The notes: generated from the sequence alone by a model not told the origin. A DNA stretch of 64,000 nt from Candidatus Portnoybacteria bacterium (GCA_028688325.1 JAQTYI010000002.1:9395-73394), one strand, 5' to 3'. Shown: positions 19,028 to 32,582, counted from the stretch's first letter. Numbers and translations: made by a program.

Positions 19028-20300
19028 TTGTTTTTTGGGCAGATTCTCCCGCCCGTTCAATAATTGTCGCTTTAATGTTTATGTCTTTAGGCGGATTGGT
19101 CGGCAAACTCGCAAAAAAGCTGGAACCCTTGCCAAGTTCGCTCTCGGCCCAGACCCGGCCGCCATGGCCTTCAATGATTTCTTTAACAATGAATAGGCCC
19201 AGGCCAGAACCGTCGGTATACATATCTCTGGCGTTTGAACCGCGCTGGAATTTTTTAAAAATGTTGGCGATTTCTTCTTTGGGCACGCCGATGCCGTTAT
19301 CCTGAATCTTAAAAACAACCTCATTATCTTTTTGATAGATAAAAACGATAATTTCGGCTTTGCCTTCCCTGATATTCCTAGTATACGAATCGGCCTTGGC
19401 CGAAGGCGTATATTTGATGGCGTTTTCAATTAAATTGCCAATGGCATCTTTTAGAAAATTCTCCTGACAGAGAATTTTGGGCAACAGGATTTTTTCAATA
19501 TTAATCTTTAAATCTATCTGCCGCTCGGCCAGCTTGGGCTCAAAACCGCTGGCTAGTTCCTTAATGAATGATTCCGGGTCAATCCACTGAGCATGGTCAG
19601 GGGTTACCTTAAATTTAGTGCTCGTCATTTCCGAGGCGTTTAAAATATCATTGATAATATCTTCCAACTTTAGGGCTTTATCATACAGGCCCTCTATGAA
19701 AGTAGCTTGCTTCTCTTTGGGAAACTTCTCAAAACTCCCCTCTTTAATCATCGAGGCAATGCCTTTAATAACTGAAATCGGGGTTCTTAGCTGATGCGAA
19801 GCTAAATTAAGAAATTCGGTTTTAGCTTGATTGAGTTTTTGCAGCTCCTCGCGGGCCTGCTTTTCAACTTCCAGAGCCGACTCTACTTTGACCTTGCCGG
19901 CCTGAAGCTCGGCTGTGGCCTTAACAACTTCTTGCTGAAGATTATTGCTTAGCTCTTTAAATGCATTTTTGGCTTTTTTCTCTTCAAAATTTGATACAAT
20001 TATTTTTTCTGTGCTTTTATTAAAAAAATATCCGTAAGTAATAATTAAAACGAAGATGGAAACAATCAACGATTTTGAAATATTTTTTTCAACTAAATAT
20101 GATCCGAGCAAAAGACAAGAAGCTAAAATTAAGCTTATTAAAAGATAGCGCTCAAATAAGCAATCACTGAATTTTAGTTCGCAATATTGGCATCGTTTAG
20201 CGGGAGGATAATTAAGGTTTCTTGCGAGCCAACAATTTTTATTAACGCACCCGGATCCTCCCGACATCTTTTCCGTTTGTATTTTTTGTTCTTTCTCCAT
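19020..20300 (-). CDS. Sensor histidine kinase with N-terminal Cys4 zinc-ribbon and 2 TM helices
   Basis: HisKA H-box (LASHQLRTPISVI) and HATPase_c N/G1/G2 boxes (DNGIGVP, GSGLGL). The N-terminus reads CVNKNC…CQYC. Confidence 0.85.
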   Translation of the reverse strand: MEKEQKIQTEKMSGGSGCVNKNCWLARNLNYPPAKRCQYCELKFSDCLFERYLLISLILASCLLLGSYLVEKNISKSLIVSIFVLIITYGYFFNKSTEKIIVSNFEEKKAKNAFKELSNNLQQEVVKATAELQAGKVKVESALEVEKQAREELQKLNQAKTEFLNLASHQLRTPISVIKGIASMIKEGSFEKFPKEKQATFIEGLYDKALKLEDIINDILNASEMTSTKFKVTPDHAQWIDPESFIKELASGFEPKLAERQIDLKINIEKILLPKILCQENFLKDAIGNLIENAIKYTPSAKADSYTRNIREGKAEIIVFIYQKDNEVVFKIQDNGIGVPKEEIANIFKKFQRGSNARDMYTDGSGLGLFIVKEIIEGHGGRVWAESELGKGSSFFASLPTNPPKDINIKATIIERAGESAQKTNA

Positions 20301-20729
20301 TTATTTATTGAAAATTTTCTTAAAAAGAACATACATTAAAGCGGCTATGCAAATATTGGCGAAGCTCGCCAAAAGAGTTAAGAAAGACACCAGCAAATCC
20401 AACCCCCAAGCAAAAATGATAAATTTCCCAAGATAGAGAAGCGCGAAAGAAATAAAAAATAGTACAGCCGTAAATCCGTAAACGAATTTCAGCTCTCCGG
20501 GGTCTTTTTCAATCGGCACGATACCCTGTTTTAAAACATTCCTTGAGAATAATCCATAAAACTGATAAAGAAAATTAAGCTTCATTGAAAAAACTCCAAA
20601 AAAAAATAAAAGAGCCGTTGCCAAAACTAACCAGTGATTTTGGATTAAAAAAGCGATCAGCGCCAAAAAACCACTGGTGGCCCTAAAAAAATTAAGAGAT
20701 CGGTTATCGTAAATTGAACATTGTTGCAT
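20301..20729 (-). CDS. DUF4395-like integral membrane protein
   Basis: 142 aa with 4 predicted TM helices, co-directional with the kinase. Confidence 0.35.
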   Translation of the reverse strand: MQQCSIYDNRSLNFFRATSGFLALIAFLIQNHWLVLATALLFFFGVFSMKLNFLYQFYGLFSRNVLKQGIVPIEKDPGELKFVYGFTAVLFFISFALLYLGKFIIFAWGLDLLVSFLTLLASFANICIAALMYVLFKKIFNK

Positions 20730-20757
20730 ATAAATGTTTTTAAAAATTATTTTATTT

Positions 20758-22143
20758 TTATTTACTTATAAACTTTTTTGCGGCGCTAATAAAATGCCAT
20801 TTAGAAGTCCCGGCATTTTTAAGTTGAGCGCGATCTTTAACTGCGGAGCACGCTTTTACCACATCTTCAATATTGTTATATATATAAAAACTCAATCTGC
20901 AGCTAGCCGGCGGATTCAATTCATATTGATGGTGCGCTAAAGTCGCGCAATGACACCCGGCCCGAGATTCTATCCCTTGGCTGCTTAATTCTTTGGAAAT
21001 TTCAAATGGATCCCTTCCTTCGCAAGTAAACGAAACTAAAGAAGTCCTATTTTTAGAATCTTTGGGACCGTAAATTTTTAACGACGGCACCTCTTCCAAT
21101 ATCTCCAACGCTTTTTTTATTAAATCATTTTCGTGTGATTCTATACTGCTCATCGCCTTTTCAACATCCGACGCTTCTATCTTTTTGTCGGCCATAAAAT
21201 AATTGGGCACACCGGGGTTTAAAGAAAAATCCATTAACAATCTTATCGCCTGAGCGGAAAGGATTGTCCCTAAGATATTGGGAGTCCCTGCGGTAAATTT
21301 CCAGGGAAGCAAATTATATTCCACTTTTTCCGGACTAACCTTTCCCTCAGCTATCATGTCTCCCCCATAAAGAAACGGCCTCATTTTTGTAAGCAATTCC
21401 TCTTTCGCGTACAAAGCTCCGACTCCAAAAGGTGCAAGCATTTTATGAAAAGACCAAACCAGAAAATCCACATCTAAATCTTTAACATCAACAAAAATAT
21501 TTGGAACAACCTGGGCGCCGTCAATTAAAAGATATGATTTTTTTTCTCCGCTTGGTTGAATATATCCGCTGGAATCGGCAATCTCCCTTATTTTTTTAAT
21601 CGGATTTTTTGTTCCTAAAAAATTGGATGCTCCGGTGCAACAAACTATTTTAGTTCTTTTGTCCACCAGGGATCTTAAATGATCTAAATCAAGTTCTCCC
21701 GTTTCTTTGTCAAATCTTGCCAGTCTGCATTCAACTTTTACTCCAAATTTTGGCAAAATTTCACTGCATAGCCCGTACCAGGGAACATAATTTGAATTAT
21801 GCTCCATAAATGTCGTGACTACATTATCTCCGTCTTTGAATTCGGTCATCAAAGAGTACATAACCGAATTGATCGCTTCGGTGGCGTTTCTGTATAAAAT
21901 AATACTTCTCTTGGACGGAGCGCCGACGAACTGAGCGATAGTGTCATAGGAAGATTCAAACTTTTCGGTAGTTAATAGTGAAGACCGAGACTGGCCCCTG
22001 TGCACATTATCGTATTGCACGATAAGTTCATCCATCAAATCTAACAATTGGATCGGCGCTTGGGTGCTGGCCGCGTTATTAGAAACAACCCTTCCGGTCT
22101 TTATTGCCGGAAAGAATTTTCTTATTTTTTGAGTATCGATCAT
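20758..22143 (-). CDS. Class-V aminotransferase / cysteine desulfurase family (SufS/CsdA-like)
   Basis: PLP-lysine motif SFHKM and a C-terminal catalytic-Cys region (RAGCHCA). Confidence 0.8.
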   Translation of the reverse strand: MIDTQKIRKFFPAIKTGRVVSNNAASTQAPIQLLDLMDELIVQYDNVHRGQSRSSLLTTEKFESSYDTIAQFVGAPSKRSIILYRNATEAINSVMYSLMTEFKDGDNVVTTFMEHNSNYVPWYGLCSEILPKFGVKVECRLARFDKETGELDLDHLRSLVDKRTKIVCCTGASNFLGTKNPIKKIREIADSSGYIQPSGEKKSYLLIDGAQVVPNIFVDVKDLDVDFLVWSFHKMLAPFGVGALYAKEELLTKMRPFLYGGDMIAEGKVSPEKVEYNLLPWKFTAGTPNILGTILSAQAIRLLMDFSLNPGVPNYFMADKKIEASDVEKAMSSIESHENDLIKKALEILEEVPSLKIYGPKDSKNRTSLVSFTCEGRDPFEISKELSSQGIESRAGCHCATLAHHQYELNPPASCRLSFYIYNNIEDVVKACSAVKDRAQLKNAGTSKWHFISAAKKFISK

Positions 22144-22273
22144 GCCCTATTATTATAGTATTCCTCTAATTCAATTTTAACATATTTCAACTAAAAGCGA
22201 ACCTGCCCTTATCAACATTCCTATCCTTTGCTTCCCTTACTTTAAATCCTGCCTCTGCATATTTGAATACCCC

Positions 22274-22819
22274 GTGGGCGGCAATACCTGGTACCAAGGC
22301 AAACACGAGCCGATTGTTAGCAAAGATTTATTTGACCTGGTGCAGGATAGAATAACCAGCCAGACATCAAGAGTTAATAATCAAGAATTCGCCTTTACCA
22401 AACTGATGAAGTGCGGACTTTGCGGCTCGGGCATTACGGCAGATGAAAAAATTAAGAAACAGCTAAACGGCAATATCCACCGCTATGTTTATTACGGCTG
22501 CACCCGATTCAACGATAAAGAATGCAAATGCGGCTATATCCGGGAAGACGACTTAATCAAGCAGCTTGAAAATCTGATAGACCAGATGTCCTTGGACGAG
22601 ATTGGCATTAAGCAAAAAATTAAAGCTGAAGTTGAGCGGCATAAAAAATTCCAAGCCGGGATGCTCGGAATAAAATCGATAATAAAAGTGGCTGATATAG
22701 ATATACGCAACTACGCCAAATACATTCTTAGAGACGGCACAAATCTTGAAAAAAGAGAGCTGATATCTTGTTTCAAAAGCAAGGTTGTAATAAAAAACAA
22801 ACTAGTTTCTTTAGAATAA
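22274..22819 (+). pseudogene. Large serine recombinase remnant (C-terminal zinc-ribbon/coiled-coil part only)
   Basis: Contains the CGLCGS…YYGC zinc ribbon and recombinase-domain residues, but lacks the N-terminal resolvase catalytic domain. Confidence 0.7.
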
Positions 22820-22821
22820 AC

Positions 22822-22849
22822 TAAAATCACCCGAATTCGGGTGATTTTA
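22822..22849. terminator. Bidirectional Rho-independent terminator between convergent genes
   Basis: Perfect 12-bp stem taaaatcacccg/cgggtgatttta with aatt loop. Confidence 0.75.
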
Positions 22850-22874
22850 GTTTATGACATCCAACACCTTTTAT

Positions 22875-23417
22875 CTACTCAGTCTCTAATAATATTTGAA
22901 CTAATGGATTTAAGGTTTTATATCCATGCTCCACAAAAAGACGATCTCTTCTGTCCTCTGGATTCTTTGCTCCATGAAAAAGATTATTACGAATTGAATA
23001 CCAAAACTCGACCATATTTTCCCAGTCTTCTAAATTATAAATATATCCTTTTACTTTATTCTTATCGTCTATAGCATGACCTCCAAGATCCGAATGAGAA
23101 CAATTCCACCATTTTATCTCTTCCACATTACCACTGTTACCGCTTACATTACCAAGTCGTGCAATTTTTAGTTCCTTTTTTATTTCTTCCCAAGAAAGAT
23201 GCAAATCTACATTATTTAGAACTTTATTTAAATATTTTATCTTGATACTTTCGTCCTGCTTTAAAAATTGGATAGCGGCTCTATCGTTTTGAGAATTGGT
23301 GAATTTTTTCTTTTTCAAAAAAGCTATGAACGCCAAATATTCAAAAACAAACTTAGAAAAGAAATCGTCATCTGAGGCCTTTACGTGCCAATTTATAATT
23401 AATTGATTATAGTTCAT
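22875..23417 (-). CDS. HEPN-domain protein (putative RNase effector/toxin)
   Basis: 180 aa, alpha-helical, with the Rx4H motif RNNLFHG near the C-terminus. It overlaps the upstream small ORF by 1 nt. Confidence 0.5.
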   Translation of the reverse strand: MNYNQLIINWHVKASDDDFFSKFVFEYLAFIAFLKKKKFTNSQNDRAAIQFLKQDESIKIKYLNKVLNNVDLHLSWEEIKKELKIARLGNVSGNSGNVEEIKWWNCSHSDLGGHAIDDKNKVKGYIYNLEDWENMVEFWYSIRNNLFHGAKNPEDRRDRLFVEHGYKTLNPLVQILLETE

Positions 23418-23418
23418 A

Positions 23419-23649
23419 TTAAGTTTTTAATTTCCAACGATAGGTTCCTGAGTTTTTTATCAGCCCTCTTTTACAGGGTTTTCCATAAAAGAAGTACTGT
23501 CCAAAAGCATTGCCAAATGGCCAATTTTTAATCTCTATTTTCTCCACTACAGCGTAGTGTTTAGCTTCGTTCCAAGAATCCAATATAACAATAAATGAAA
23601 TTTTTTCTCCGTTTTCGCGCCATAATTCAAAGATATTCTTTTTATCCAT
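23419..23649 (-). CDS. Small hypothetical protein (possible HEPN partner/antitoxin)
   Basis: 76-aa ORF immediately upstream of, and overlapping, the HEPN gene. Confidence 0.35.
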   Translation of the reverse strand: MDKKNIFELWRENGEKISFIVILDSWNEAKHYAVVEKIEIKNWPFGNAFGQYFFYGKPCKRGLIKNSGTYRWKLKT

Positions 23650-23711
23650 TATTTTTTAACATTTACTTCGGTTGTTATAAACATATAAATACTAAAAATC
23701 TATTTAAGGCC

Positions 23712-25460
23712 CTAAAATCTAAACCCTAACAGACCACCATTTTCTTTAGCGTCTGTAAAGATAATCCTTATAGCCTTTTTAAATTCAACCCCAAATTCTT
23801 CGCTAAATTCTGAATAAGGAACATCGTCAGAGTTTAATGTGCAAATATACTGGGTCTTCGTTTCGCTGGCTATCTTTGCTGCAGACTCCAAGGCTTTTGC
23901 TGTTTGCCTTTCGTCAACACCATCAAAAATAGTGCTATCATGGATTAAGAATCTGGGACTCGGCTTCTTCTGTCTAAATTCTAAAACAGTAATATCATAA
24001 GTAAAAACTTTCATATAACTAATCCCTTGACTTCCCGCCCTCAATATCTCTACATTAAATTTATAGCCGGCATTAGTTATCGAGATCAAGAAATTACCTG
24101 GCTGAGAATATAAAAACTCTGAATTTTTATTAAATAATTTTATAATTTTTTCAATCTGGTCCTCTCTTTCTTCTTTATCTTGTCTAGCTTTTTTAATTAA
24201 GTCTTCTTTTTTAATTTTAATATTGCTAACGCCTTCTTCAATTTTTTTTATATCTCTGACTCTGTTATTTTTTTCCTCCAAAGACTGTCTTATCACTGAG
24301 AGGTGATTTTGTAATTTTGTATATTCTTCTAAGGCGCCATGGGTCTGCAAAATCATTAATAACTCAGCTCGCTTTGCGGATAATTCCTCTGTCTTCACTT
24401 TTTGCTCAGCCATTTCTCGTTGTATTCTTTGAACCTCTGATAATAGATAATCTTTCCTATTCTTTATAACTTTAATATGGAAATTTAGAACATCTTCTAC
24501 TCGCTTCTTTATTGCATCCGAAAATACAAACCTAGCTTCCGCATAAAGTTGTTCGACCTTTTGCAAGGAAATGTCTTTTTCTTCAATAAAACTCTCTTGG
24601 TATTTATCTAAAATATTTTTATTAATCGCAGAAGCATTAATGACATTATGGATTTGCTCTGTTAAAAGATCGGCTTCTTGCTGAATTTTATAATACTGTG
24701 GATGAACATTAAATGAATTGAGCTCTTCCTCATTCGCTTCAACCTCACTCAATAAACGAACTTTTTCTGCTTCTAGCTCGCTCAAAGAGCCCACCAAGCT
24801 ATCAAGCAATCCCAGCCCTAATGCTTTTTTTAAATTTTCTATTATACCCAATTCATCCTTCAATACCTGGAACTGACTAGCATACTCATCATTCATACCC
24901 AACAAAAAAGAATTATTTACTTGAACATCCCATTCTTTTTGCTGCGGATAATGTCTAAAGGGATCCTGAAAGCCGCCTAAACCTCTTCTGACTGCATAGG
25001 ATATCAGACTTCTAAATGTTGGCGAATATTTCCGCTCTTCAATTACCGGAAGACCATACATAAAAAAACCTAAGACTATTGTCCAGTCCTTAATAGGCAA
25101 AGTGCGTTTTCCGTCTCTTATCCCTACCTCTGGTTCTATGGGCCAACCAGAAAAATTACCCTCCAGCGTTACCCTCGAAAATTCTTTCGTATTTCTAGAA
25201 ACCGTTATAATTTTCCCATCAAGCTCAAGATCCAAAATAAAAGTCCATCCTTCAAGTTCTTTTCTACGAACACCAACATTTGGACTCGTACTTGAGCCAA
25301 GACAAAAATGTATGATTTCAATTAGAAAGCTTTTACCTAAACCATTTCTAGAATCTTTATCAGAGGAGTCGTTAGTACGCTCAGCGAGCACGACATTAAA
25401 ACCAGGGGAAAAATCAACTCGTTTGAATAAAGGATTTGTACTCCTAACCGATTTGATCAT
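23712..25460 (-). CDS. ABC/SMC-like coiled-coil ATPase (Septu PtuA / Lamassu LmuB / ABC-3C-like)
   Basis: N-terminal P-loop with insert (FNVVLAE-x12-NGLGKS). ~350 aa of coiled coil. C-terminal signature-like RAGSQGIS and Walker B/D-loop PRFLIHDSTIFDGVDE. Confidence 0.6.
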   Translation of the reverse strand: MIKSVRSTNPLFKRVDFSPGFNVVLAERTNDSSDKDSRNGLGKSFLIEIIHFCLGSSTSPNVGVRRKELEGWTFILDLELDGKIITVSRNTKEFSRVTLEGNFSGWPIEPEVGIRDGKRTLPIKDWTIVLGFFMYGLPVIEERKYSPTFRSLISYAVRRGLGGFQDPFRHYPQQKEWDVQVNNSFLLGMNDEYASQFQVLKDELGIIENLKKALGLGLLDSLVGSLSELEAEKVRLLSEVEANEEELNSFNVHPQYYKIQQEADLLTEQIHNVINASAINKNILDKYQESFIEEKDISLQKVEQLYAEARFVFSDAIKKRVEDVLNFHIKVIKNRKDYLLSEVQRIQREMAEQKVKTEELSAKRAELLMILQTHGALEEYTKLQNHLSVIRQSLEEKNNRVRDIKKIEEGVSNIKIKKEDLIKKARQDKEEREDQIEKIIKLFNKNSEFLYSQPGNFLISITNAGYKFNVEILRAGSQGISYMKVFTYDITVLEFRQKKPSPRFLIHDSTIFDGVDERQTAKALESAAKIASETKTQYICTLNSDDVPYSEFSEEFGVEFKKAIRIIFTDAKENGGLLGFRF

Positions 25461-25680
25461 GCTTTAATTTTATTAGATTGTTTTCAATTGTTATCAAGTC
25501 CAAAAGATGAAGTAAATCAAGAGTTAAAACAAATTTCTCAAAATTATTTACTTCTGGAATTTTATTATTTTTTTCCCACAAGGAAGAAACGGAACACGGT
25601 CTTCTAATTTCACCAAGCAAAACAGAGCCGACCCCAATAAGAGAATTAGATAATTTTATATTTTTATCAGGTAAAATCAT
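25444..25680 (-). CDS. Small hypothetical protein (middle component of ATPase operon)
   Basis: 78 aa. It overlaps both neighbours (17 nt and 4 nt). Confidence 0.4.
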   Translation of the reverse strand: MILPDKNIKLSNSLIGVGSVLLGEIRRPCSVSSLWEKNNKIPEVNNFEKFVLTLDLLHLLDLITIENNLIKLKHDQIG

Positions 25681-26408
25681 TTTTCAAATATATCACACTG
25701 CTCAAAAAAATAAATTAAAACAGATAAGCCAGCTGCTTGCTTTAAAATGTCTGCTGAATTAGATGAAGCGAAATCGGAAAGAATGTAAAATAGGCCGTCA
25801 CTCGAATTTCCTTTTTCTCTAAGCTCGCGATATTTTTCTATAAAACCGCGCTTCAGCCTTTCGGCAAAATCAGTGTCGGGGTGAGAATTTAAATATCTTT
25901 TAACTAAAGTTACCTTACTTAGTCCCATTTTTATTCGTTCCACAACATCCAGAGACAGGTCATTCTTTTTTATCTTTTCTTGCGGGGTTATTAAATCTAG
26001 TGTGCTTACTTCAAAATCATATTGCTTAACCAAATATTTTATCGTATCCTCTAACTCGCTAAAAGTAATCTGGGGCAAATTCATAATCAATTTCTTCTTT
26101 ACCCAGTCTTCGTGGTCTAGCTTTATCTTTTTTAATATATCTACCGTGTAAGCAATAGGATCTTTATCAATTTCTGTATGACAAGAAGAACACAACAAAA
26201 TATGATTGGCATAACAAGCCCTCTCTTTTTCTGTCATAGATTTATTGTATCTTGCAGAACCAGGCTCCTTGCCCTCAATGTGTGCGTCCTCTCCTTTGTG
26301 CTGGACATGACTTTTTACGCTCGTATGTGTAACTTGCCCTTTACACTTATTGCATATGCCAGCACTTCTCCCCCAAAGAATAATTTTTTCTGCCGGAGAA
26401 ATTTTCAT
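25677..26408 (-). CDS. HNH nuclease domain protein
   Basis: N-terminal CNKCKG…HIEGKEP…YANHILLCSSCH HNH zinc-finger nuclease motif, plus a ~150-aa helical C-terminal domain. Confidence 0.6.
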   Translation of the reverse strand: MKISPAEKIILWGRSAGICNKCKGQVTHTSVKSHVQHKGEDAHIEGKEPGSARYNKSMTEKERACYANHILLCSSCHTEIDKDPIAYTVDILKKIKLDHEDWVKKKLIMNLPQITFSELEDTIKYLVKQYDFEVSTLDLITPQEKIKKNDLSLDVVERIKMGLSKVTLVKRYLNSHPDTDFAERLKRGFIEKYRELREKGNSSDGLFYILSDFASSNSADILKQAAGLSVLIYFFEQCDIFEK

Positions 26409-26738
26409 AATCTTAATTATTTATAATATTAACACTTTCTAAAAAAACAGAACAGATAGAAACTGTTAATATTCCATCAAAAATGGCCTTTGAAAATACA
26501 AATAATGAAAAGAGTCGAATAACTTTTCTATTAATTAAGTTGCACTCAAAAACGGCGCAATCTAAATTGCGCCGTTTAAAAGCGATCTTTGACCCAAGCT
26601 AAATTTTTGGACATTTATTGTCATTTAATTTAACCCCCCTTCTGAATCGCCTCTGACGATACAGAATCTAAGAATCAAATTCTTGACATAACCCAGAAAT
26701 AAATCTGTTAAACCGTCTCGGTCGGTCTCACATGAGTG

Positions 26739-26809
26739 TTGGGGAGGAGGGATTCGAACCCCCGATGACGGATTCAGAGTCCGTTGCCTTACCGCTTGGC
26801 TACTCCCCA
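26739..26809 (-). tRNA. tRNA-Gln (anticodon CUG)
   Basis: 7-bp acceptor TGGGGAG/CTCCCCA with U1 as in E. coli tRNA-Gln. D-arm GCCAAGCGGTAAGGC. Anticodon stem ACGGA/TCCGT with loop CTCTGAA. T-arm GGGGGTTCGAATCCCTC. CCA is not encoded. Confidence 0.85.
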
Positions 26810-26894
26810 GAAATAGCTTATAGCTGATAGCTTTTAGCTAATGGAAAAACTCAATTCTTGCGCGGATCGCTGCACTCGGAATGACAAAGTTTTT

Positions 26895-28058
26895 TTATTT
26901 ACTTTCCGTCCCCGCCCATTCCACCACCGCCAATTCCAGCGGCAACTGAGGCAAGGAGGCGGATTTGATTTCGTTTTCCGCGCGGATCAAAAACCGGATA
27001 AGATTGATAAAGTCCGCACCGGTGAATTTACGCCCTTGCTCCAAAATAACCGTAAATTGCTCGTCCGTCAATTCCGGCGCGATGAGCTGGCGCATTTTTT
27101 CCGTTTCACCGCTTTGCTTCCAAGCGGCCAGGATCATCATTTTGCGGGCGTAATTTATCAATGATTTGGCAAATTGCCCGAGCTCATAGCCATCTTCCGC
27201 CAGCTTATTCACATAGCCCAGCGCTTCTTTGGCATTTTTAGTGACCAAAAAGTTCATCATATCCGCCACCGCCGCCATATCTGTGATGCCTAAAATCGTT
27301 TGCGCTTCGACCAGAGTAATGTTTTTATCTTCCATTGCCATCACTTGGCCCAGAAGCGACTCGGCGTCGCGCGCCGCGCCATCCGCGTTCAGCGCTATCA
27401 GTTCCAAAGCACCTTTATCGATCTTCAATCCTTCCTCCTTAGCGATGATTTTTAATCGCTCGATTATTTTATCCAGCGTCAATTTATGGAAATCAAACCT
27501 TTGGCAGCGCGAAATTATTGTCTGCGGAACCTTATGCGTTTCGGTGGTAGCTAAAACGAAAATGGCGTGACTTGGTGGCTCTTCCAGTGTCTTGAGCAGC
27601 GCATTGAAAGCTTCACGCGTCAACATATGCACTTCATCGATGATGAAAACCTTATATTTTAATTTGGCCGGCGAAAATTTTATGCCTTCGCGCAATTCCC
27701 GGATCTCGTCTATGCCGCGGTTTGACGCCGCGTCGATCTCTATTAAGTCCATGGCCCGGCCTTCGTTTATTTCCGCGCAAGAAGCGCATTTGTTGCAGGG
27801 CTCATAACTTTTTACTCCGAGCGATTTATCCCGAGTAGAATCGAGGGAAGTCGAAGAGCGGGCTTCGCAGTTCACGGCTTTTGCCAGCAAACGCGCAACT
27901 GTCGTTTTGCCCGTTCCGCGCGGCCCGCAAAACAAATAAGCGTGCGCTACTTTTCCCAGTGTCAAAGCATTGGTTATGGTGCGCACCACATGTTCCTGGC
28001 CGGAAACCTCAGCAAAGGTTTTTGGCCGGTATTTGCGGTATAAAACCAGATTTTCCAT
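26895..28058 (-). CDS. dnaX: DNA polymerase III subunit gamma/tau
   Basis: Walker A GPRGTGKTT, DEVHML, zinc module CNKCASC. It carries a ~15-aa in-frame repeat-derived insert (ARSSTSLDSTRDKSLGVKS). Confidence 0.9.
   Translation of the reverse strand: MENLVLYRKYRPKTFAEVSGQEHVVRTITNALTLGKVAHAYLFCGPRGTGKTTVARLLAKAVNCEARSSTSLDSTRDKSLGVKSYEPCNKCASCAEINEGRAMDLIEIDAASNRGIDEIRELREGIKFSPAKLKYKVFIIDEVHMLTREAFNALLKTLEEPPSHAIFVLATTETHKVPQTIISRCQRFDFHKLTLDKIIERLKIIAKEEGLKIDKGALELIALNADGAARDAESLLGQVMAMEDKNITLVEAQTILGITDMAAVADMMNFLVTKNAKEALGYVNKLAEDGYELGQFAKSLINYARKMMILAAWKQSGETEKMRQLIAPELTDEQFTVILEQGRKFTGADFINLIRFLIRAENEIKSASLPQLPLELAVVEWAGTESK
27806..27870. repeat. Dispersed palindromic repeat inserted in frame within dnaX
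   Basis: gagcgatttatcccgagtagaatcgagggaagtcgaagagcgggcttcgcag matches intergenic copies at ~38700-38760 and ~15040-15130. Confidence 0.6.
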
Positions 28059-29028: not shown

Positions 29029-31479
29029 TTATGATTTATATCTGCTGTTTATTTCTCCCTCCACCAGATGCTTGTCCCGCCCGTATTTCAGCCGCGACAG
29101 GTCCTTCAGGGCGCCGATTATCTCTTTGTTTTCCTGCGGCGGGCGGTCAAAGACCATATTGAAGGGCTTGGAGGTCAGGTTGTTTATTAGAAGCTTGGCA
29201 TAAGCGCTGAAATTGTCCTGATTTATCAGGTCGTTCTGATCGAAAATAGGCGTGAACTGTTTGACCAAAAATTCCGCGTCTTCCGCGCCCACGCGCATAG
29301 CCAGCATTGAGCCCACATTGCCAAACACCGCGTCTCTTATCTTTTCCGGAATTTGTTTAATATATTGGTGCGTTATCACCAGGCACAATTTATATTTCCT
29401 GGCTTCCGACAATATAGTGGAAATGCTGTCGGTGGTGAAATTTTGGAATTCGTCGATATAAAGATAAAAATCGGAACGCAGCTCTTCGGCCGTATCCACG
29501 CGAGAAAAAGACGCCATCATCAATTTGCCTACAATTATCAACCCTAAAAGATAAGCGTTCAAATCGCCGATGCGGCCCTTGCTCAAATTCACTATCAGAA
29601 TTTTTTTGTTATCCATTATGTCGCGGAAATTGATGGCTGATTTGCTCTGCCCGATTATCGGCCGCATAAAATCATTGGCGATAAAGGTGTTGAATTTGGA
29701 AGTGATATACGGCACAACATTGGCCAGCGCCGCCTCGCCTCCGGCTTTTTCCGCCTCTTTCACCCAGAAATCTTTCACCACAACATTCTGGCATTTATCC
29801 AGCAATCGTTTGCGATATGCCGCGTCCGCCAACACCCTTGGCACCTCCATCAGCGTGGCACCTTCATTGGGATCATCCATCAAAAGCTGCAGAGCATTGC
29901 GGGTGTATTGTTCAAAGATCGGCCCGCCGGTGGTTTTTAAGTCGTATAATTTATCAAAAATGCTTATCAGCTCGTTGACGATGAAAGTTTTCTGCTCGGG
30001 GTATTTCGGATCGTATTCCAGCATATTGATTCCCAAGGGGCGCTCAATATCGGCCGGGTTAAAATAGACAACATCTTCCGCGCGATTTGGCGGCACACAA
30101 CCCAAAACATAATCGGCAAAATCGCCATGCGGGTCGATGACGGCCAGCCCCTCCTCTTTGACATCCTGCGCCAGCATTCCCTGCATGGCTGAGGTTTTGC
30201 CGGTACCCGTCTGGCCCACGATATAAAGGTGCCGGCGCCTGTCGTCTCGCTGCATACGCACCACCGTTTCCACGCCCCGGAAAAAATTCTTGCCCAAAAT
30301 AAGGCCTTGTGTTGGCATATTGGGAGGAGGAGCGGCCTGTTTTGATTTTATAAATTTGACTTTGGGCGTTTCCACTTCCGTGGTCGGAAAATGGAAAATG
30401 GAAGCCAACTCTTCAGTGCTTAAAATAATTTTTCGGCTCGAGTCAAAAATACGGAAAGAAAAATCATAAAGCAGCTGGCGCAATCTCCGGCCAGTGCCGG
30501 CCCGCGATGATTTCAACAGATTCAAATTAAGCCCGTTAAATTGCGAAAAAGCGCTTTCCATCTGCAGCAAAATCCGGTCCGCTTGTTCGGGCATTTTGGC
30601 CGAAACGATCATATTGATATTCGCTTCATAGGCCACTTTGCTGGCCTTGCTTTCCAATGCTTTTATGACTTCCAAGCTCAGAGGCGTAACCGAAGGCGGG
30701 CCGGGAGACGGCGCTTCTTTTTTGGAGAACAAAGTGGAGCCGGTCAAAAGGTCGATTAAAATAACCAGCCAATTTTTATCCACCCGTATTTTTGACAGTT
30801 CATATCTTTTGCCCTTCTGCATCTCCTGGGCGATCTTCAAGGAATTTTTGCGCCAGCGCTTGGCCTTGCTCGGCCGGATGGCAATCTGAATGGCCGCACC
30901 TTCGCCTTCCGCGTCCAACTTGCTCAGCGAGTTGACTATTTCATTTAACGGGTCGGTTTCCAGCCCCTGATAGGTCTTAAAAGGCAGGGAAATTCCTCTG
31001 CCCGCAAAAAGATACGCACCCGTCCCCGCGCCCTGAGGATTGAAGATGTTGTAATCGTCTATCGGCCGCACATCTGCCAACGGGAAAAATCCGTGGATCT
31101 GTTTTTCCATTACTTCCTTCAGGCGCCTGGGACAAGCGACATAAAAAGCTATCTCTTCGCCCACATTCTGCACCGCCATTTCAAAGGTGAAAACCGGCTG
31201 ACCGAAAAGAAACGCGCTGCTCCCTTTTTCTTTCAGGTTGCTCAAGCTGGCATAAAACTGTTCCATCACCGCCACCAGCTCCTTGAACGGCTTTTTATTT
31301 TTATCATCCGCGGGGAGCTTGGGCACAGTCACCAGAAACAGCGACATATTCAACGCCCGGGTTATCCGGCCCTTGCCGCGAACCAGATTTATCAAAAAAT
31401 ATATACCCAAAAAAACCACGATAAAAAATAATACCATGGTTAAGGGAAACAAGATTAAATTAAGGTCGAATGTTTGCAC
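29029..31479 (-). CDS. Type IV secretion coupling-protein-like ATPase (VirD4/TraG/TraD family)
   Basis: Two N-terminal TM helices. Walker A GQTGTGKTS. 816 aa with TraG/VirD4-like layout. Confidence 0.65.
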   Translation of the reverse strand: MQTFDLNLILFPLTMVLFFIVVFLGIYFLINLVRGKGRITRALNMSLFLVTVPKLPADDKNKKPFKELVAVMEQFYASLSNLKEKGSSAFLFGQPVFTFEMAVQNVGEEIAFYVACPRRLKEVMEKQIHGFFPLADVRPIDDYNIFNPQGAGTGAYLFAGRGISLPFKTYQGLETDPLNEIVNSLSKLDAEGEGAAIQIAIRPSKAKRWRKNSLKIAQEMQKGKRYELSKIRVDKNWLVILIDLLTGSTLFSKKEAPSPGPPSVTPLSLEVIKALESKASKVAYEANINMIVSAKMPEQADRILLQMESAFSQFNGLNLNLLKSSRAGTGRRLRQLLYDFSFRIFDSSRKIILSTEELASIFHFPTTEVETPKVKFIKSKQAAPPPNMPTQGLILGKNFFRGVETVVRMQRDDRRRHLYIVGQTGTGKTSAMQGMLAQDVKEEGLAVIDPHGDFADYVLGCVPPNRAEDVVYFNPADIERPLGINMLEYDPKYPEQKTFIVNELISIFDKLYDLKTTGGPIFEQYTRNALQLLMDDPNEGATLMEVPRVLADAAYRKRLLDKCQNVVVKDFWVKEAEKAGGEAALANVVPYITSKFNTFIANDFMRPIIGQSKSAINFRDIMDNKKILIVNLSKGRIGDLNAYLLGLIIVGKLMMASFSRVDTAEELRSDFYLYIDEFQNFTTDSISTILSEARKYKLCLVITHQYIKQIPEKIRDAVFGNVGSMLAMRVGAEDAEFLVKQFTPIFDQNDLINQDNFSAYAKLLINNLTSKPFNMVFDRPPQENKEIIGALKDLSRLKYGRDKHLVEGEINSRYKS

Positions 31480-31565: not shown

Positions 31566-32582
31566 TTAAAATGTTTCTTTTGCACCATCAACATAAATGA
31601 TAGTTGAAACGCTCCATTTATATTTTAGATCTTTTAATTCTGTGTCTTTTAATTCCACATCTTCCTCTTTAAATTGATTATAATCGGTTCCCGACTTCCA
31701 AATTTTACTGCCACGAGCAGGAATTCCTTTGTCATAACTTACTTTCGATACGGAAATTTTATTATCAAAAATATCATAAAAGGTAAGTGCGCCCTCGACG
31801 CCTCTTATTTCTTTATCGGTTTCGTTGATAAATTTTAAATCCATCGTGATTTGATCCTCGTAATCGCCGGACATATAATCGGCTTTATGAAAACCCTTAC
31901 TTGTAATTTCCAGATTAACCCTTTTTGCGTCCGATTTTAACTGCGAGATGCCACCTTGTTGCATCTCCTTGCCTAACTCTTCCTTTTCTTTTACATCTTT
32001 CTTGTAAGCTTGCACGCTTGAAACGGAACCCATAATAATGGCAAGCAGAATTATGGCGGCAATTGAAAGAGCTATGCCATGTTTATTAGATAGCGATTCT
32101 TGCTGTCTAATTTCAATTTTTTCCGCCTTTTTCTCATATTTATTAGCAATCAAATGAACAACCATACCGCCAATAAGACCGATAATGAAAGACAATATAA
32201 TTACAACAGTTGCGCCCATCGCCGCACCTAAGGCGGCTCCCCCTCTCTCAATCCCGCTCGATGTTGACATCGCTGCCTGCGAACCAAAAATAAACGCAAA
32301 AACAATGGCCGATAAAGGAAGAAAAAACAAAGATATTTCCGTCAAACGAAAACATCTTTCTAGAATGTGATTTCTTTCGGTAAATTGCCAAACATTCCAG
32401 ATCGTCAATGCCCAAATAATCCAAAACGCTATACCCAAATAAGAATTAAGCGTCATCCACGCATAATTTTGAGTAAAGATTAAAGCAGGCAATAGCGCCA
32501 AAAAAATCTTTAAAACAGCATATTCTTTTATTATATTTTTCATAACAATTAAATTTATCTTCGTGTTTTCTTCAATTTGCAA
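31566..32582 (-). CDS. Hypothetical polytopic membrane protein with soluble C-terminal domain
   Basis: 338 aa with ~6 TM segments. Confidence 0.4.
   Translation of the reverse strand: MQIEENTKINLIVMKNIIKEYAVLKIFLALLPALIFTQNYAWMTLNSYLGIAFWIIWALTIWNVWQFTERNHILERCFRLTEISLFFLPLSAIVFAFIFGSQAAMSTSSGIERGGAALGAAMGATVVIILSFIIGLIGGMVVHLIANKYEKKAEKIEIRQQESLSNKHGIALSIAAIILLAIIMGSVSSVQAYKKDVKEKEELGKEMQQGGISQLKSDAKRVNLEITSKGFHKADYMSGDYEDQITMDLKFINETDKEIRGVEGALTFYDIFDNKISVSKVSYDKGIPARGSKIWKSGTDYNQFKEEDVELKDTELKDLKYKWSVSTIIYVDGAKETF

What the first reader, a model, noticed from the sequence alone, without database searches (positions are those of the whole stretch)
22144..26810. AT-rich island at the tRNA-Gln 3' end with a 5-gene HNH / ABC-ATPase / HEPN operon (candidate multi-component defense system)
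The segment between the aminotransferase gene and the 3' end of tRNA-Gln(CUG) is visibly more AT-rich than its flanks. On the far side it carries a serine-recombinase gene that lacks its catalytic N-terminus, i.e. an integrase remnant. Inside are five minus-strand ORFs with overlapping start and stop codons: an HNH nuclease (243 aa), a 78-aa protein, an ABC/SMC-like coiled-coil ATPase (582 aa), a 76-aa protein after a 62-nt gap, and a HEPN Rx4H protein (180 aa). The ATPase/HNH sizes resemble the Septu proteins PtuA and PtuB. The effector / small protein / SMC-like ATPase order resembles Lamassu. Pairing an ABC ATPase with HNH and HEPN effectors and small helical middle proteins matches the in-silico ABC-3C class. 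I know of no characterised system with exactly this five-gene HNH-x-ATPase-x-HEPN order.
Basis: partly seen in the sequence, partly recalled or inferred. Interest (0 to 1): 0.85.

Follow-up and report, generated by a model that had tools for sequence, protein, structure and literature searches.

The report
Two defence modules on decayed island
The five genes are two separable anti-phage modules sitting side by side on a decayed mobile island in a tiny-genome (CPR) bacterium. One is a three-gene Lamassu-like "ABC-3C" system with an HNH nuclease. The other is an unannotated small-protein + HEPN RNase pair that repeatedly attaches itself to many different defence systems.

Summary
Five intact minus-strand ORFs lie in the most AT-rich stretch of the window, between tRNA-Gln and a serine-recombinase C-terminal remnant.

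- **Genes 1-3** (HNH-CTD10, MC6, DUF2326 ABC ATPase) are a textbook ABC-3C / Lamassu-superfamily cassette. They match PADLOC's untested candidate PDC-M68 over nearly their full lengths (the 582-aa ATPase end to end). The trio is strictly conserved in all 12 related loci (in the 11 that include the HNH position), and none of the six metagenome loci with readable downstream sequence carries genes 4-5 after the ATPase.
- **Where gene 5's relatives sit.** They lie between hsdM and hsdS of Type I R-M operons, or directly after Avs4, Avs3, a GmrSD-like gene, Lamassu, Ppl-like and ABC-3C genes, and one gene after Gabija.
- **Gene 4** (76 aa, β-rich, not an ABC-3C middle component) is a facultative upstream partner. 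It pairs with two or three different HEPN families, including AbiU2 in Rhizobium.
- **The five-gene order** recurs once, behind a bona fide Lamassu.

So this is a composite, not one five-part system. Septu is rejected.

The parts
25677..26408 (-). ABC-3C effector. N-terminal Cap5-like HNH endonuclease (residues ~1-106) plus C-terminal CTD10 docking domain (residues 122-242). Equivalent to PADLOC PDC-M68A.
   Evidence: Pfam CTD10 1.1e-9, 39.4 bits, above the 28.1-bit cut-off. PADLOC PDC-M68A 2.6e-65 over residues 3-242; the HNH part also matches CBASS/SAVED-HNH effector models at 1e-19 to 1e-22. The motifs AHIxG...N..L.C..CH..ID and both Cys pairs are intact and conserved in 10 homologues.
25444..25680 (-). 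ABC-3C middle component, family MC6 (78 aa); the LmuC-like adaptor.
   Evidence: Pfam MC6 1.2e-15, 57.7 bits, above the 27.2-bit cut-off. It overlaps the HNH gene by 4 nt and the ATPase gene by 17 nt. It is conserved between effector and ATPase in 11 of 11 related metagenome loci and in L022.
23712..25460 (-). ABC-3C sensor ATPase (582 aa). SMC/Rad50-like ABC ATPase of the DUF2326 type; a distant LmuB homologue; equivalent to PADLOC PDC-M68B.
   Evidence: PADLOC PDC-M68B 9.7e-183, residues 1-582 against profile 1-581/581; LmuB 1.5e-11. Pfam DUF2326 2.1e-36 on residues 447-582. Walker A NGLGKS, a signature-like SxG and Walker B hhHD are conserved. The residue after the Walker B Asp is Ser, Gly or Asn rather than Glu.
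23650..23711 (-). 62-nt spacer between the ATPase stop codon and the start of the 76-aa gene. It marks the boundary between the two modules.
   Evidence: No terminator-like or promoter-like site on the minus strand here; sequence shown. In L085, L009 and L086 the equivalent spacer is only 1-7 nt.
23419..23649 (-). s76: a 76-aa conserved small protein, predicted beta-rich. It is a facultative upstream partner of HEPN genes and is proposed here to be a neutraliser or regulator.
22875..23417 (-). H180: a 180-aa stand-alone HEPN-fold protein (predicted RNase) from an unannotated family. It behaves as a 'satellite' of defence systems.
22816..22855 (.). Perfect 20+20-nt palindrome between the convergent recombinase remnant and H180. 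Probably a bidirectional terminator and the end of the operon.
   Evidence: Inverted repeat I1, 100% complementary, 0-nt loop; sequence.
22274..22819 (+). C-terminal remnant of a large serine recombinase. The catalytic resolvase domain and most of the recombinase domain are missing.
   Evidence: Pfam Zn_ribbon_recom 1.4e-9; Recombinase profile positions 79-100 of 102 only. NCBIfam CcrB and XisF alignments start at profile position ~256-260. 55% identical to residues 305-486 of the 486-aa recombinase of L002, which lies about 4 kb from an s76-H180 pair plus an ABC-3C system.
26738..26809 (-). tRNA-Gln(CUG), the right-hand neighbour of the island. It is not demonstrably an integration site.
   Evidence: ARAGORN. 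No direct repeat of its 3' end within 21900-27000. A 9-bp GC-rich hairpin followed by a T-run on the minus strand at ~26547-26574 was read by eye and was not flagged by the scan.

Best explanation
Window 22274-26737 is the decayed remnant of a serine-recombinase-borne defence island in a Candidatus Portnoybacteria genome. It carries two separable defence modules that are probably co-transcribed.

Module 1 (25444-26408 plus 23712-25460) is a three-gene ABC-3C / Lamassu-superfamily system, equivalent to PADLOC candidate PDC-M68. The mechanism is inferred by homology to Lamassu/DdmABC:
- A dimer of the coiled-coil DUF2326 ABC ATPase, together with the MC6 adaptor, holds the HNH-CTD10 effector inactive through its CTD10 domain.
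- When the ATPase senses aberrant or foreign DNA structures (DNA ends or palindromic replication intermediates), the effector is released and oligomerises.
- The HNH nuclease then degrades DNA, aborting the infection.

Module 2 (22875-23649) is a two-gene cassette, s76 plus a stand-alone HEPN protein (H180).
- H180 is predicted to be a latent RNase that uses R143 and H148.
- It acts as an independent second-line abortive-infection effector.
- The cassette, or H180 alone, habitually inserts inside or directly behind other defence genes and borrows their transcription.
- s76 is inferred to be its cognate neutraliser or regulator in contexts where H180 is not embedded in a Type I R-M operon.

What is shown: gene content, family membership, the HEPN fold and motif, the separability of the modules, and their contexts elsewhere. 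What is inferred: all biochemical activities, the triggers, and the role of s76.
For: Module 1:
- Pfam MC6, CTD10 and DUF2326 all score above their curated cut-offs.
- PADLOC PDC-M68A scores 2.6e-65 and PDC-M68B scores 9.7e-183 over the full length.
- HNH-MC6-ATPase with 4-nt overlaps is conserved in the metagenome loci (in 10 of 11; L078's contig ends before the HNH position) at 47-60% ATPase identity, and in L022.
- The HNH catalytic residues are intact.
- PDC candidates derive from cassettes embedded in BREX, DISARM and Type I R-M systems (Payne et al., bioRxiv 10.1101/2024.01.29.577857). L022 and L007 show exactly this embedding.
- ABC-3C is equated with type II Lamassu/DdmABC, whose LmuA effector is sequestered and then released as an active tetramer on sensing DNA ends (bioRxiv 10.1101/2025.06.23.660979; PMC10586767; PMC11707656).

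Module 2:
- HEPN fold and motif.
- H180 homologues lie between hsdM and hsdS in 13 non-redundant loci.
- Others lie directly after Avs4 (L020, L040, L045), Avs3a (L039), PDC-S41 (L033) and a GmrSD-like Orf5/HEC-06 gene (L034). One lies one small gene after Gabija GajB (L031). Two lie after Type I REase genes (L058 by 4 nt; L060 by 288 nt).
- s76 precedes two or three HEPN families: H180, Pfam HEPN_AbiU2, and a 145-aa RNSFMH protein whose HEPN nature rests only on the motif.
- Embedded solo HEPN genes can confer defence that depends on the motif histidine (HEC-08). R-M-embedded HEPN acting as a second line of defence is the PrrC paradigm (PMC3710099).

Separability:
- None of the six PDC-M68 metagenome loci with sequence downstream of the ATPase has s76 or H180 there.
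- None of the 63 genome loci retrieved with the H180 profile has s76, and only 2 have a DUF2326 ATPase.

Island: GC outlier and truncated recombinase. Related recombinases lie near s76 in L001, L087 and L089.
Against: The s76-H180 pair, or H180 alone, lies next to SMC-like ABC ATPase genes more often than simple independence predicts:
- Window: 62-nt gap.
- L085 (Lamassu): 7-nt gap.
- L009 and L086 (Ppl-like): 1-nt gap.
- L026 (DUF2326): 0-nt gap.
- L001: convergent, 4 nt between the stop codons.
- L007 and L022: the same R-M operon holds both.

That pattern could reflect functional coupling. It also recalls the ABC-HEPN fusions PrrC and RloC.

Other weaknesses:
- No experiment exists for PDC-M68, H180 or s76.
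- The s76 structure model is poor, so an antitoxin-like role is a guess.
- H180 has no visible neutraliser in most loci.
- The ATPase lacks the canonical catalytic Glu after Walker B, so its ATPase cycle may differ from LmuB's.
- The neighbourhood sample is small (about 50 H180 loci and 11 s76 loci) and was not drawn at random.
Confidence: 0.65

Rival explanations
1. A single five-component, dual-effector system. The ABC ATPase is the shared sensor. It controls the HNH DNase through MC6 and CTD10, and controls the HEPN RNase through s76 acting as a second adaptor. This would be a split, in-trans version of the ABC-HEPN anticodon nucleases PrrC and RloC, grafted onto Lamassu-like machinery.
For: - The same five-gene order recurs in L085 behind a bona fide Lamassu: LmuA 1.8e-106, LmuC 2.5e-44, LmuB 3.6e-145, with 7 nt between lmuB and s76.
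- Ppl-like ABC ATPases are followed at 1 nt by s76 and a HEPN-like gene in L009 and L086.
- H180 abuts a DUF2326 ATPase in L026.
- No terminator lies in the window's 62-nt spacer.
- ABC-HEPN fusions are an established architecture (PMC3710099).
Against: - H180 has no ABC-3C CTD, and s76 hits no MC model.
- All 11 close PDC-M68 metagenome loci lack the pair; six of them have readable sequence downstream of the ATPase.
- In L001 the pair is convergent with the ABC-3C operon, so it cannot be co-transcribed with it.
- H180 is equally appended to non-ABC systems: Type I R-M, Avs3/Avs4, GmrSD-like, PDC-S41 and (one gene away) Gabija.
- s76 also occurs with AbiU2 in a prophage-like region, with an ATPase plus S8 peptidase, between hsdM and hsdS, and next to reverse transcriptases, none of which involves an ABC ATPase.
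- The partner ATPases are too divergent to share a docking surface. The L001 and window ATPases are not detectable by tblastn at 1e-3.
Confidence: 0.2
2. s76-H180 is a toxin-antitoxin addiction cassette. Its role would be to stabilise the mobile island or the neighbouring defence genes through post-segregational killing, not to defend against phage. Only module 1 would be a defence system.
For: - It has the two-gene, translationally coupled small-plus-toxin architecture, with a 1-nt spacer.
- HEPN toxins of TA systems are the top structural matches: 8xdj, 5yep and 7ae2.
- It is associated with serine-recombinase islands in L001, L087 and L089.
Against: - H180 occurs without s76 in every one of the 63 genome loci retrieved with the H180 profile, which does not fit an obligate TA pair.
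- s76 is not an MNT, nor any known antitoxin fold.
- The consistent embedding inside or behind defence genes is the signature used successfully to predict defence genes.
Confidence: 0.1
3. The cluster is a non-functional relic: decaying cargo of a dead mobile element with no current role.
For: The recombinase is truncated, no att repeats were found, and the island's composition has not ameliorated toward the host's.
Against: - All five ORFs are full length relative to their homologues.
- Every invariant residue is retained: HNH motif, Walker A, signature and Walker B, HEPN R143/H148, and the 20 invariant s76 positions.
- The start/stop overlaps are preserved as in homologous cassettes.
Confidence: 0.05

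Closest known systems
ABC-3C systems (Krishnan, Burroughs, Iyer & Aravind 2020, in silico) / PADLOC phage-defence candidate PDC-M68 (Payne et al. 2024 preprint)
   Same: Genes 1-3 match the defining Pfam models (CTD10, MC6, and the DUF2326 ATPase C-terminus). They also match both PDC-M68 HMMs over essentially their full lengths, in the canonical effector-MC-ATPase order with overlapping stop and start codons.
   Different: Nothing substantive for genes 1-3. Genes 4-5 are not part of the class: they hit no CTD, MC or PDC model. PDC-M68 is an untested candidate. I found no paper that names it, and the two papers that mention DUF2326 concern a botulism-outbreak genome study and a liver-fluke transcriptome.
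Lamassu type II / DdmABC (LmuA-LmuC-LmuB), experimentally characterised
   Same: The same three-part logic: an effector with a C-terminal docking domain, a small middle component, and an SMC/Rad50-like ABC ATPase. DUF2326 ATPases align to a PADLOC LmuB model, over most of its length in the relatives L026, L001 and L007 (E 7e-15 to 2e-11). The literature treats ABC-3C as part of the Lamassu superfamily.
   Different: - The effector is an HNH nuclease with CTD10, rather than Cap4 with CTD7 or CTD12.
- The middle component is MC6 (78 aa), rather than MC3 or MC2.
- The window's proteins hit no LmuA or LmuC model, and hit LmuB only weakly at the N-terminus.
- Walker B lacks the following Glu.
R-M-embedded and Abi-type solo HEPN proteins (Anantharaman et al. 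2013; HEC-08 of Payne et al. 2024), and the PrrC/RloC paradigm
   Same: - H180 has the HEPN fold and the Rx4H motif.
- Its closest relatives sit between hsdM and hsdS of Type I R-M operons, much as prrC is embedded in EcoprrI.
- Others are appended to further defence genes.
   Different: - The family is captured by no Pfam HEPN model, PADLOC model or NCBIfam model.
- There is no fused ABC ATPase as in PrrC and RloC.
- In the window there is no R-M system at all.
- It has a facultative 76-aa beta-rich partner that I did not find mentioned for HEPN genes in my keyword look-up of the one HEPN survey I consulted (the term 'small protein' has no occurrence).
HEPN-MNT toxin-antitoxin systems
   Same: The best structural matches to H180 are HEPN toxins of these systems: 8xdj, 5yep and 7ae2. 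The gene arrangement is also two genes, adjacent and on the same strand.
   Different: The partner is not a minimal nucleotidyltransferase. s76 is 76 aa, beta-rich and has no NTP-transferase hit. H180 carries large insertions (180 aa, against about 130 aa for the toxins).
Septu (PtuA/PtuB)
   Same: An ABC-type ATPase plus an HNH nuclease, of roughly similar sizes.
   Different: - No PtuA or PtuB PADLOC hit at E<=0.01.
- The gene order is effector first.
- A middle component is present.
- The HNH protein carries an ABC-3C CTD.

Membership tests
ABC-3C (ABC-three-component) systems | SMC/Rad50-like ABC ATPase with a long helical insert | tested here: met
   Pfam DUF2326 2.1e-36. PADLOC PDC-M68B 9.7e-183 over the full length, plus LmuB 1.5e-11. 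Walker A, a signature-like motif and Walker B lie at the two ends of the protein.
ABC-3C (ABC-three-component) systems | Small middle component (MC family) encoded between the effector and the ATPase | tested here: met
   Pfam MC6 1.2e-15, 57.7 bits, above the 27.2-bit cut-off. The position is conserved in 11 of 11 metagenome loci plus L022.
ABC-3C (ABC-three-component) systems | Effector protein carrying one of the ABC-3C C-terminal domains (CTD1-12) | tested here: met
   Pfam CTD10 1.1e-9, 39.4 bits, above the 28.1-bit cut-off, on residues 122-242 of the HNH protein.
ABC-3C (ABC-three-component) systems | Genes 4 and 5 belong to the system (they carry an MC or CTD signature, or co-occur with the trio) | tested here: not met
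   No MC or CTD hit even at E<=10. Absent from all 11 PDC-M68 metagenome loci, six of which have readable sequence downstream of the ATPase.
PADLOC PDC-M68 (candidate, untested) | Adjacent genes matching both the PDC-M68A and PDC-M68B HMMs | tested here: met
   2.6e-65 (residues 3-242 against profile 5-251/253) and 9.7e-183 (residues 1-582 against profile 1-581/581).
Lamassu sensu stricto (LmuA/LmuB/LmuC models) | Hits to the LmuA, LmuB and LmuC HMMs | tested here: not met
   Only a weak N-terminal LmuB hit (1.5e-11, residues 13-155) and no LmuA or LmuC hit. For contrast, L085 scores 1e-106, 1e-145 and 1e-44. DefenseFinder's Lamassu-Fam models could not be run.
Lamassu / ABC-3C | Anti-phage or anti-plasmid activity; effector release on DNA sensing | not testable with these tools
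   Needs heterologous expression and biochemistry. The mechanism is taken from the literature on DdmABC and Lamassu.
Septu | PtuA ATPase and PtuB HNH matching the Septu HMMs | tested here: not met
   No PtuA or PtuB among the PADLOC hits at E<=0.01.
HEPN superfamily | Conserved Rx4-6H motif | tested here: met
   R143-N-N-L-F-H148 is invariant in 25 sequences at 54-68% identity. It is also present in L026.
HEPN superfamily | Four-helix up-down bundle fold | tested here: met
HEPN superfamily | Metal-independent RNase activity | not testable with these tools
   Inferred from the motif only.
HEPN-MNT toxin-antitoxin | Adjacent minimal nucleotidyltransferase antitoxin | tested here: not met
   The neighbour s76 has no Pfam hit and a beta-rich model.
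PrrC/RloC-type anticodon nucleases | ABC ATPase fused to a C-terminal HEPN domain, embedded in a Type I R-M locus | tested here: not met
   H180 is a separate 180-aa protein. The window holds no hsdM, hsdS or hsdR. Homologues are R-M-embedded, so the resemblance is one of context only.
tRNA-integrated genomic island | Direct repeat of the tRNA 3' end at the distal boundary, plus an intact integrase | tested here: not met
   No such repeat in 21900-27000. The recombinase is truncated and of the serine type. Only 2 of 17 related loci hold tRNA genes, none adjacent to the cassette. The compositional anomaly is real.

The most novel reading that the evidence does not exclude
s76-H180 is a portable 'guard' module. 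It would be a latent HEPN RNase, kept off by s76 or by the host system it is embedded in, that fires when the neighbouring primary defence is disabled by phage anti-defence proteins. The neighbouring system could be ABC-3C/Lamassu, Ppl, Type I R-M, Avs or Gabija. This would generalise the PrrC-EcoprrI principle to many defence systems. s76 would be a new, widely shared adaptor or antitoxin for at least two, possibly three, HEPN families. In the window the module would make the PDC-M68 system a two-layer DNase-then-RNase defence.
Probability: 0.2. Interest if true: 0.7.

Novelty: new variant of a known kind. Interest (0 to 1): 0.45.

Why it matters
- **Classification.** Genes 1-3 can be filed with confidence as an ABC-3C/Lamassu-superfamily system (PDC-M68) in an ultra-small CPR genome. 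This adds an HNH/CTD10/MC6 example that nobody has tested.
- **A missing HEPN family.** The more useful outcome is that genes 4-5 expose a widespread HEPN family that no annotation library covers: 346 homologues and 409 clusters at 50% identity, across bacteria and archaea. Its members are embedded in or appended to at least eight kinds of defence system.
- **A possible general HEPN regulator.** The 76-aa partner family recurs with two or three unrelated HEPN families, including AbiU2 in culturable Rhizobium.
- **Practical consequences.** If the pair is a self-contained or guarding RNase module, it would add a family to defence-finder databases. It would also give a tractable test case, in Rhizobium or by heterologous expression, for how solo HEPN toxins are kept silent.

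Tried and rejected
- **Septu.** Rejected; no PtuA or PtuB hits.
- **s76 as an ABC-3C middle component.** Rejected; no MC hit, beta-rich model.
- **s76 fused to H180 elsewhere.** Homologues next to Avs genes carry an N-terminal extension of about 70 aa, which could have been an s76 fusion. An HMM of s76 finds nothing in them.
- **H180 related to HEPN_AbiU2 or to the 145-aa RNSFMH protein.** hhalign probability is 0.2% for both.
- **Bridging H180 to a Pfam HEPN family through distant members.** No HEPN hit in 10 remote homologues.
- **Sequence search of solved structures with the H180 profile.** Only spurious DnaK matches.
- **att site or tRNA-targeted integration.** No repeats, and tRNA adjacency is not recurrent.
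- **Phage origin.** No s76 or H180 in IMG/VR. No s76-family (Rhizobium s80) match in GenBank phages. H180 was not searched against the phage records. H180 is absent from PLSDB plasmids. PHROG hits are limited to unknown-function families for the HNH protein and the ATPase.
- **Type I R-M elsewhere in the window.** None.
- **Krishnan et al. 2020.** The paper could not be opened. ABC-3C definitions therefore rest on the Pfam models and on secondary citations.
- **Neighbours of the distant (40-49% identity) H180 group, Pfam census.** Heterogeneous, with no dominant family.

Full report
**1. The observation**

- HNH protein, 25677-26408 (243 aa).
- A 78-aa protein, 25444-25680.
- ATPase, 23712-25460 (582 aa).
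- A 76-aa protein, 23419-23649.
- A 180-aa protein, 22875-23417.

Genes 1/2 overlap by 4 nt and genes 2/3 by 17 nt. A 62-nt spacer follows, and then genes 4/5 are separated by a single nucleotide. tRNA-Gln(CUG) lies at 26738-26809 on the minus strand.

The segment 22820-26550 has GC 0.335. That is the lowest of all same-length windows in the 64 kb (mean 0.450, sd 0.038). GC3 of the five genes is 0.23-0.33, against 0.51 +/- 0.10 for the window's ORFs of at least 150 aa.

The plus-strand ORF 22274-22819 carries only the zinc-ribbon domain and the last ~22 positions of the Recombinase domain. It is 55% identical to residues 305-486 of a full-length 486-aa serine recombinase in a groundwater metagenome contig. 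It is therefore a true C-terminal remnant.

A perfect 20+20-nt palindrome (22816-22855) sits between this remnant and the convergent 180-aa gene.

The window is a Candidatus Portnoybacteria (CPR) contig of 788,852 bp (locus tags PHT44_02375 and PHT44_02380).

No direct repeat of the tRNA end was found. Only two of 17 related loci hold any tRNA gene, and none of these lies next to the cassette. 'Integrated at the tRNA' therefore remains unproven, although foreign origin is well supported.

**2. Genes 1-3 are a canonical ABC-3C cassette**

Pfam places:
- the C-terminal half of the HNH protein in CTD10 of ABC-3C systems (39.4 bits, cut-off 28.1);
- the 78-aa protein in Middle Component 6 (57.7 bits, cut-off 27.2);
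- the ATPase C-terminus in DUF2326 (125 bits, cut-off 28.7).

PADLOC matches the HNH protein to PDC-M68A (2.6e-65) and the ATPase end to end to PDC-M68B (9.7e-183). There is a weaker LmuB hit and no Septu hit. The HNH domain also resembles the HNH effectors of CBASS.

PDC models are untested 'phage defence candidates'. They derive from cassettes embedded in BREX, DISARM and Type I R-M systems (Payne et al. preprint).

Eleven metagenomic loci have ATPases 47-60% identical to the window's. Ten of them keep HNH-MC6-ATPase, with 4-nt overlaps where my ORF calls cover the junctions. In the eleventh (L078) the contig ends before the HNH position, but MC6 and the ATPase are present. What follows the ATPase differs from locus to locus and never includes genes 4-5.

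Conserved residues:
- The HNH motif (AHIxG...N..L.C..CH..ID) and both Cys pairs are intact.
- The ATPase keeps Walker A (NGLGKS), a signature-like SxG and Walker B hhHD. The residue after the Asp is Ser, Gly or Asn rather than Glu.

The literature equates ABC-3C with type II Lamassu/DdmABC. In those systems the effector is sequestered by the SMC-like ATPase and the middle protein, and is released as an active oligomer on sensing DNA ends. I transfer that mechanism by homology; it is inferred, not shown.

**3. Gene 5 is a real HEPN protein from an unannotated family**

It has no Pfam, NCBIfam or PADLOC hit, even at E<=10 in Pfam. It does have 346 homologues at 54-68% identity. It also has 409 cluster representatives at 50% identity in a 1.84-billion-protein library, spanning CPR bacteria, Proteobacteria, Bacteroidota, Omnitrophota and several archaeal phyla.

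**4. Where gene 5's relatives live**

| Context of the H180 homologue | Loci |
|---|---|
| Between hsdM and hsdS of a Type I R-M operon (closest relatives, 51-65% identity) | 13 non-redundant loci |
| Same R-M operon also holds a DUF2326 ABC-3C cassette after hsdS | L007, L022 (L022's cassette is homologous to the window's at 40/42/46% identity) |
| Directly after Avs4 | L020, L040, L045 |
| Directly after Avs3a | L039 |
| Directly after PDC-S41 | L033 |
| Directly after a GmrSD-like Orf5/HEC-06 gene | L034 |
| One small gene after Gabija GajB | L031 |
| After a Type I REase gene | L058 (4 nt), L060 (288 nt) |
| Abutting a DUF2326 ATPase | L026 |

H180 is thus a generic satellite of defence systems, not an ABC-3C component. 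This matches two established precedents. One is the theme of solo HEPN genes embedded in R-M loci as second-line effectors, the PrrC paradigm (PMC3710099). The other is the demonstrated defence function of an embedded HEPN protein that depends on the motif histidine (HEC-08).

Neither H180 nor s76 occurs in IMG/VR viral contigs. H180 has no match in PLSDB plasmids, and the Rhizobium s76 homologue has no match in GenBank phages. H180 itself was not searched against the phage records.

**5. Gene 4 (s76)**

Its contexts are more telling:

| Locus | Arrangement |
|---|---|
| Window | PDC-M68 ATPase, then s76, then H180 |
| L085 | Bona fide Lamassu (LmuA, LmuC, LmuB), then s76, then H180 |
| L009 | Ppl-like ABC ATPase, then s76, then H180 |
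| L086 | Ppl-like ABC ATPase, then s76, then a 145-aa protein with an RNSFMH motif |
| L001 | s76 then H180, convergent with a SMEK_N/CTD12-MC8-DUF2326 system and near a related serine recombinase |
| L087 | hsdM, s76, hsdS, reverse transcriptase, hsdR |
| L090 (Rhizobium ruizarguesonis) | An 80-aa homologue overlapping the start of a Pfam HEPN_AbiU2 gene |
| L091, L093 (Rhizobium plasmids) | A homologue upstream of an ATP-binding protein and an S8 peptidase |

s76 therefore partners with H180 and Pfam HEPN_AbiU2, which are mutually unrelated by hhalign. It also partners with a third candidate, the 145-aa RNSFMH protein. That protein's HEPN assignment rests only on the motif, and it is likewise unrelated to H180 by hhalign. 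I read s76 as a dedicated HEPN-associated regulator or neutraliser. That is an inference.

s76 is absent from all 63 genome loci retrieved with the H180 profile, so it is facultative.

**6. Synthesis**

The best-supported reading (confidence about 0.65) is a composite of two parts that share a decayed serine-recombinase island and probably one transcript. One part is a complete ABC-3C/PDC-M68 system. The other is an s76-HEPN satellite cassette.

The main rival (about 0.2) is a genuine dual-effector five-gene system in which the ABC ATPase also controls the HEPN protein through s76. Its support is the recurrence of the pair immediately after three kinds of SMC-like ABC ATPase gene, together with the PrrC/RloC precedent. 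Four observations count against it:
- No close PDC-M68 locus carries the pair; six of the 11 have readable sequence downstream of the ATPase.
- The arrangement in L001 is convergent.
- The partner ATPases are highly divergent.
- H180 is equally often adjacent to non-ABC defence genes.

A pure addiction-module role (about 0.1) and a dead relic (about 0.05) are less likely.

**7. Novelty and score**

Genes 1-3 are a new member of a known, computationally defined kind. Genes 4-5 represent an unannotated HEPN family and an undescribed small partner, both with a striking 'embedding' habit. The five-gene arrangement is a recurrent but non-obligate variant. Overall verdict: new variant of a known kind, interest 0.45.

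Noticed in passing
L090:8001-9025 (Rhizobium ruizarguesonis chromosome SIQR01000001.1); also L091 and L093 (Rhizobium plasmids) and L092 (S. meliloti pRmeGR4d): In culturable rhizobia, an s76-family protein (80 aa, 41% identity) overlaps the start of a Pfam HEPN_AbiU2 gene, beside phage terminase and tail genes. On plasmids, homologues instead precede an 'ATP-binding protein' plus an S8 peptidase, or follow a 785-aa ORF. This is a tractable system for testing what s76 does.
   Followed up: partly
L020:5149-10534, L040:4828-10507, L045:4810-10492, L039:2758-9969: H180-family HEPN genes lie 3-34 nt downstream of, or overlapping, Avs4 and Avs3a genes in a Patescibacteria MAG, Rhizobium, Thiobacillus and Porticoccaceae. 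In the three proteobacterial loci the ORFs are 245-262 aa, which implies an extra N-terminal stretch of about 70 aa; that stretch is not related to s76. The Patescibacteria copy (L020) is 179 aa.
   Followed up: partly
window 23712-25460 (ATPase residues 503-520): In the window's DUF2326 ATPase and eight homologues, Walker B reads hhHD followed by Ser, Gly or Asn. The canonical catalytic Glu of ABC ATPases is missing. A 'VDE' eight residues later is conserved only in the PDC-M68 subgroup. This may mean slow or altered ATP hydrolysis.
   Followed up: no
L087:5147-12579 and L088: A Type I R-M operon carries two embedded guests: s76 between hsdM and hsdS, and a reverse transcriptase (RVT_1, 447 aa) between hsdS and hsdR. 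A 574-aa serine recombinase lies nearby.
   Followed up: no
L001/L002:1-12250: A CPR defence island, flanked by the dcw cluster (murE, PBP, rsmH), holds the following:
- a DNA methylase;
- a MutH-like nuclease;
- a full-length serine recombinase related to the window's remnant;
- a ParB-N6_N4 methyltransferase;
- s76-H180;
- a SMEK_N/CTD12-MC8-DUF2326 ABC-3C system.
The ParB-methyltransferase gene also recurs in L009 and L086. This suggests a shared mobile-element backbone.
   Followed up: partly
window 31566-32582 (minus strand) and 20000-20750: There are two further AT-rich patches in the window. One is a 338-aa ORF with GC 0.36 and GC3 0.34. The other is the 142-aa membrane-like ORF region with GC 0.33-0.35. 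These may be additional foreign or fast-evolving genes.
   Followed up: no
window 29029-31479 (minus strand): An 816-aa ORF has an N-terminal membrane segment and a P-loop NTPase region (GQTGTGKT...IDEFQNF). It resembles TraG/VirD4 or HerA-type DNA-translocation ATPases. It lies just beyond dnaX.
   Followed up: no
L004/L005:2968-3177: A 69-aa histone-fold gene lies a few kb from the R-M-embedded H180 homologue, in a contig labelled as an uncultured archaeon.
   Followed up: no
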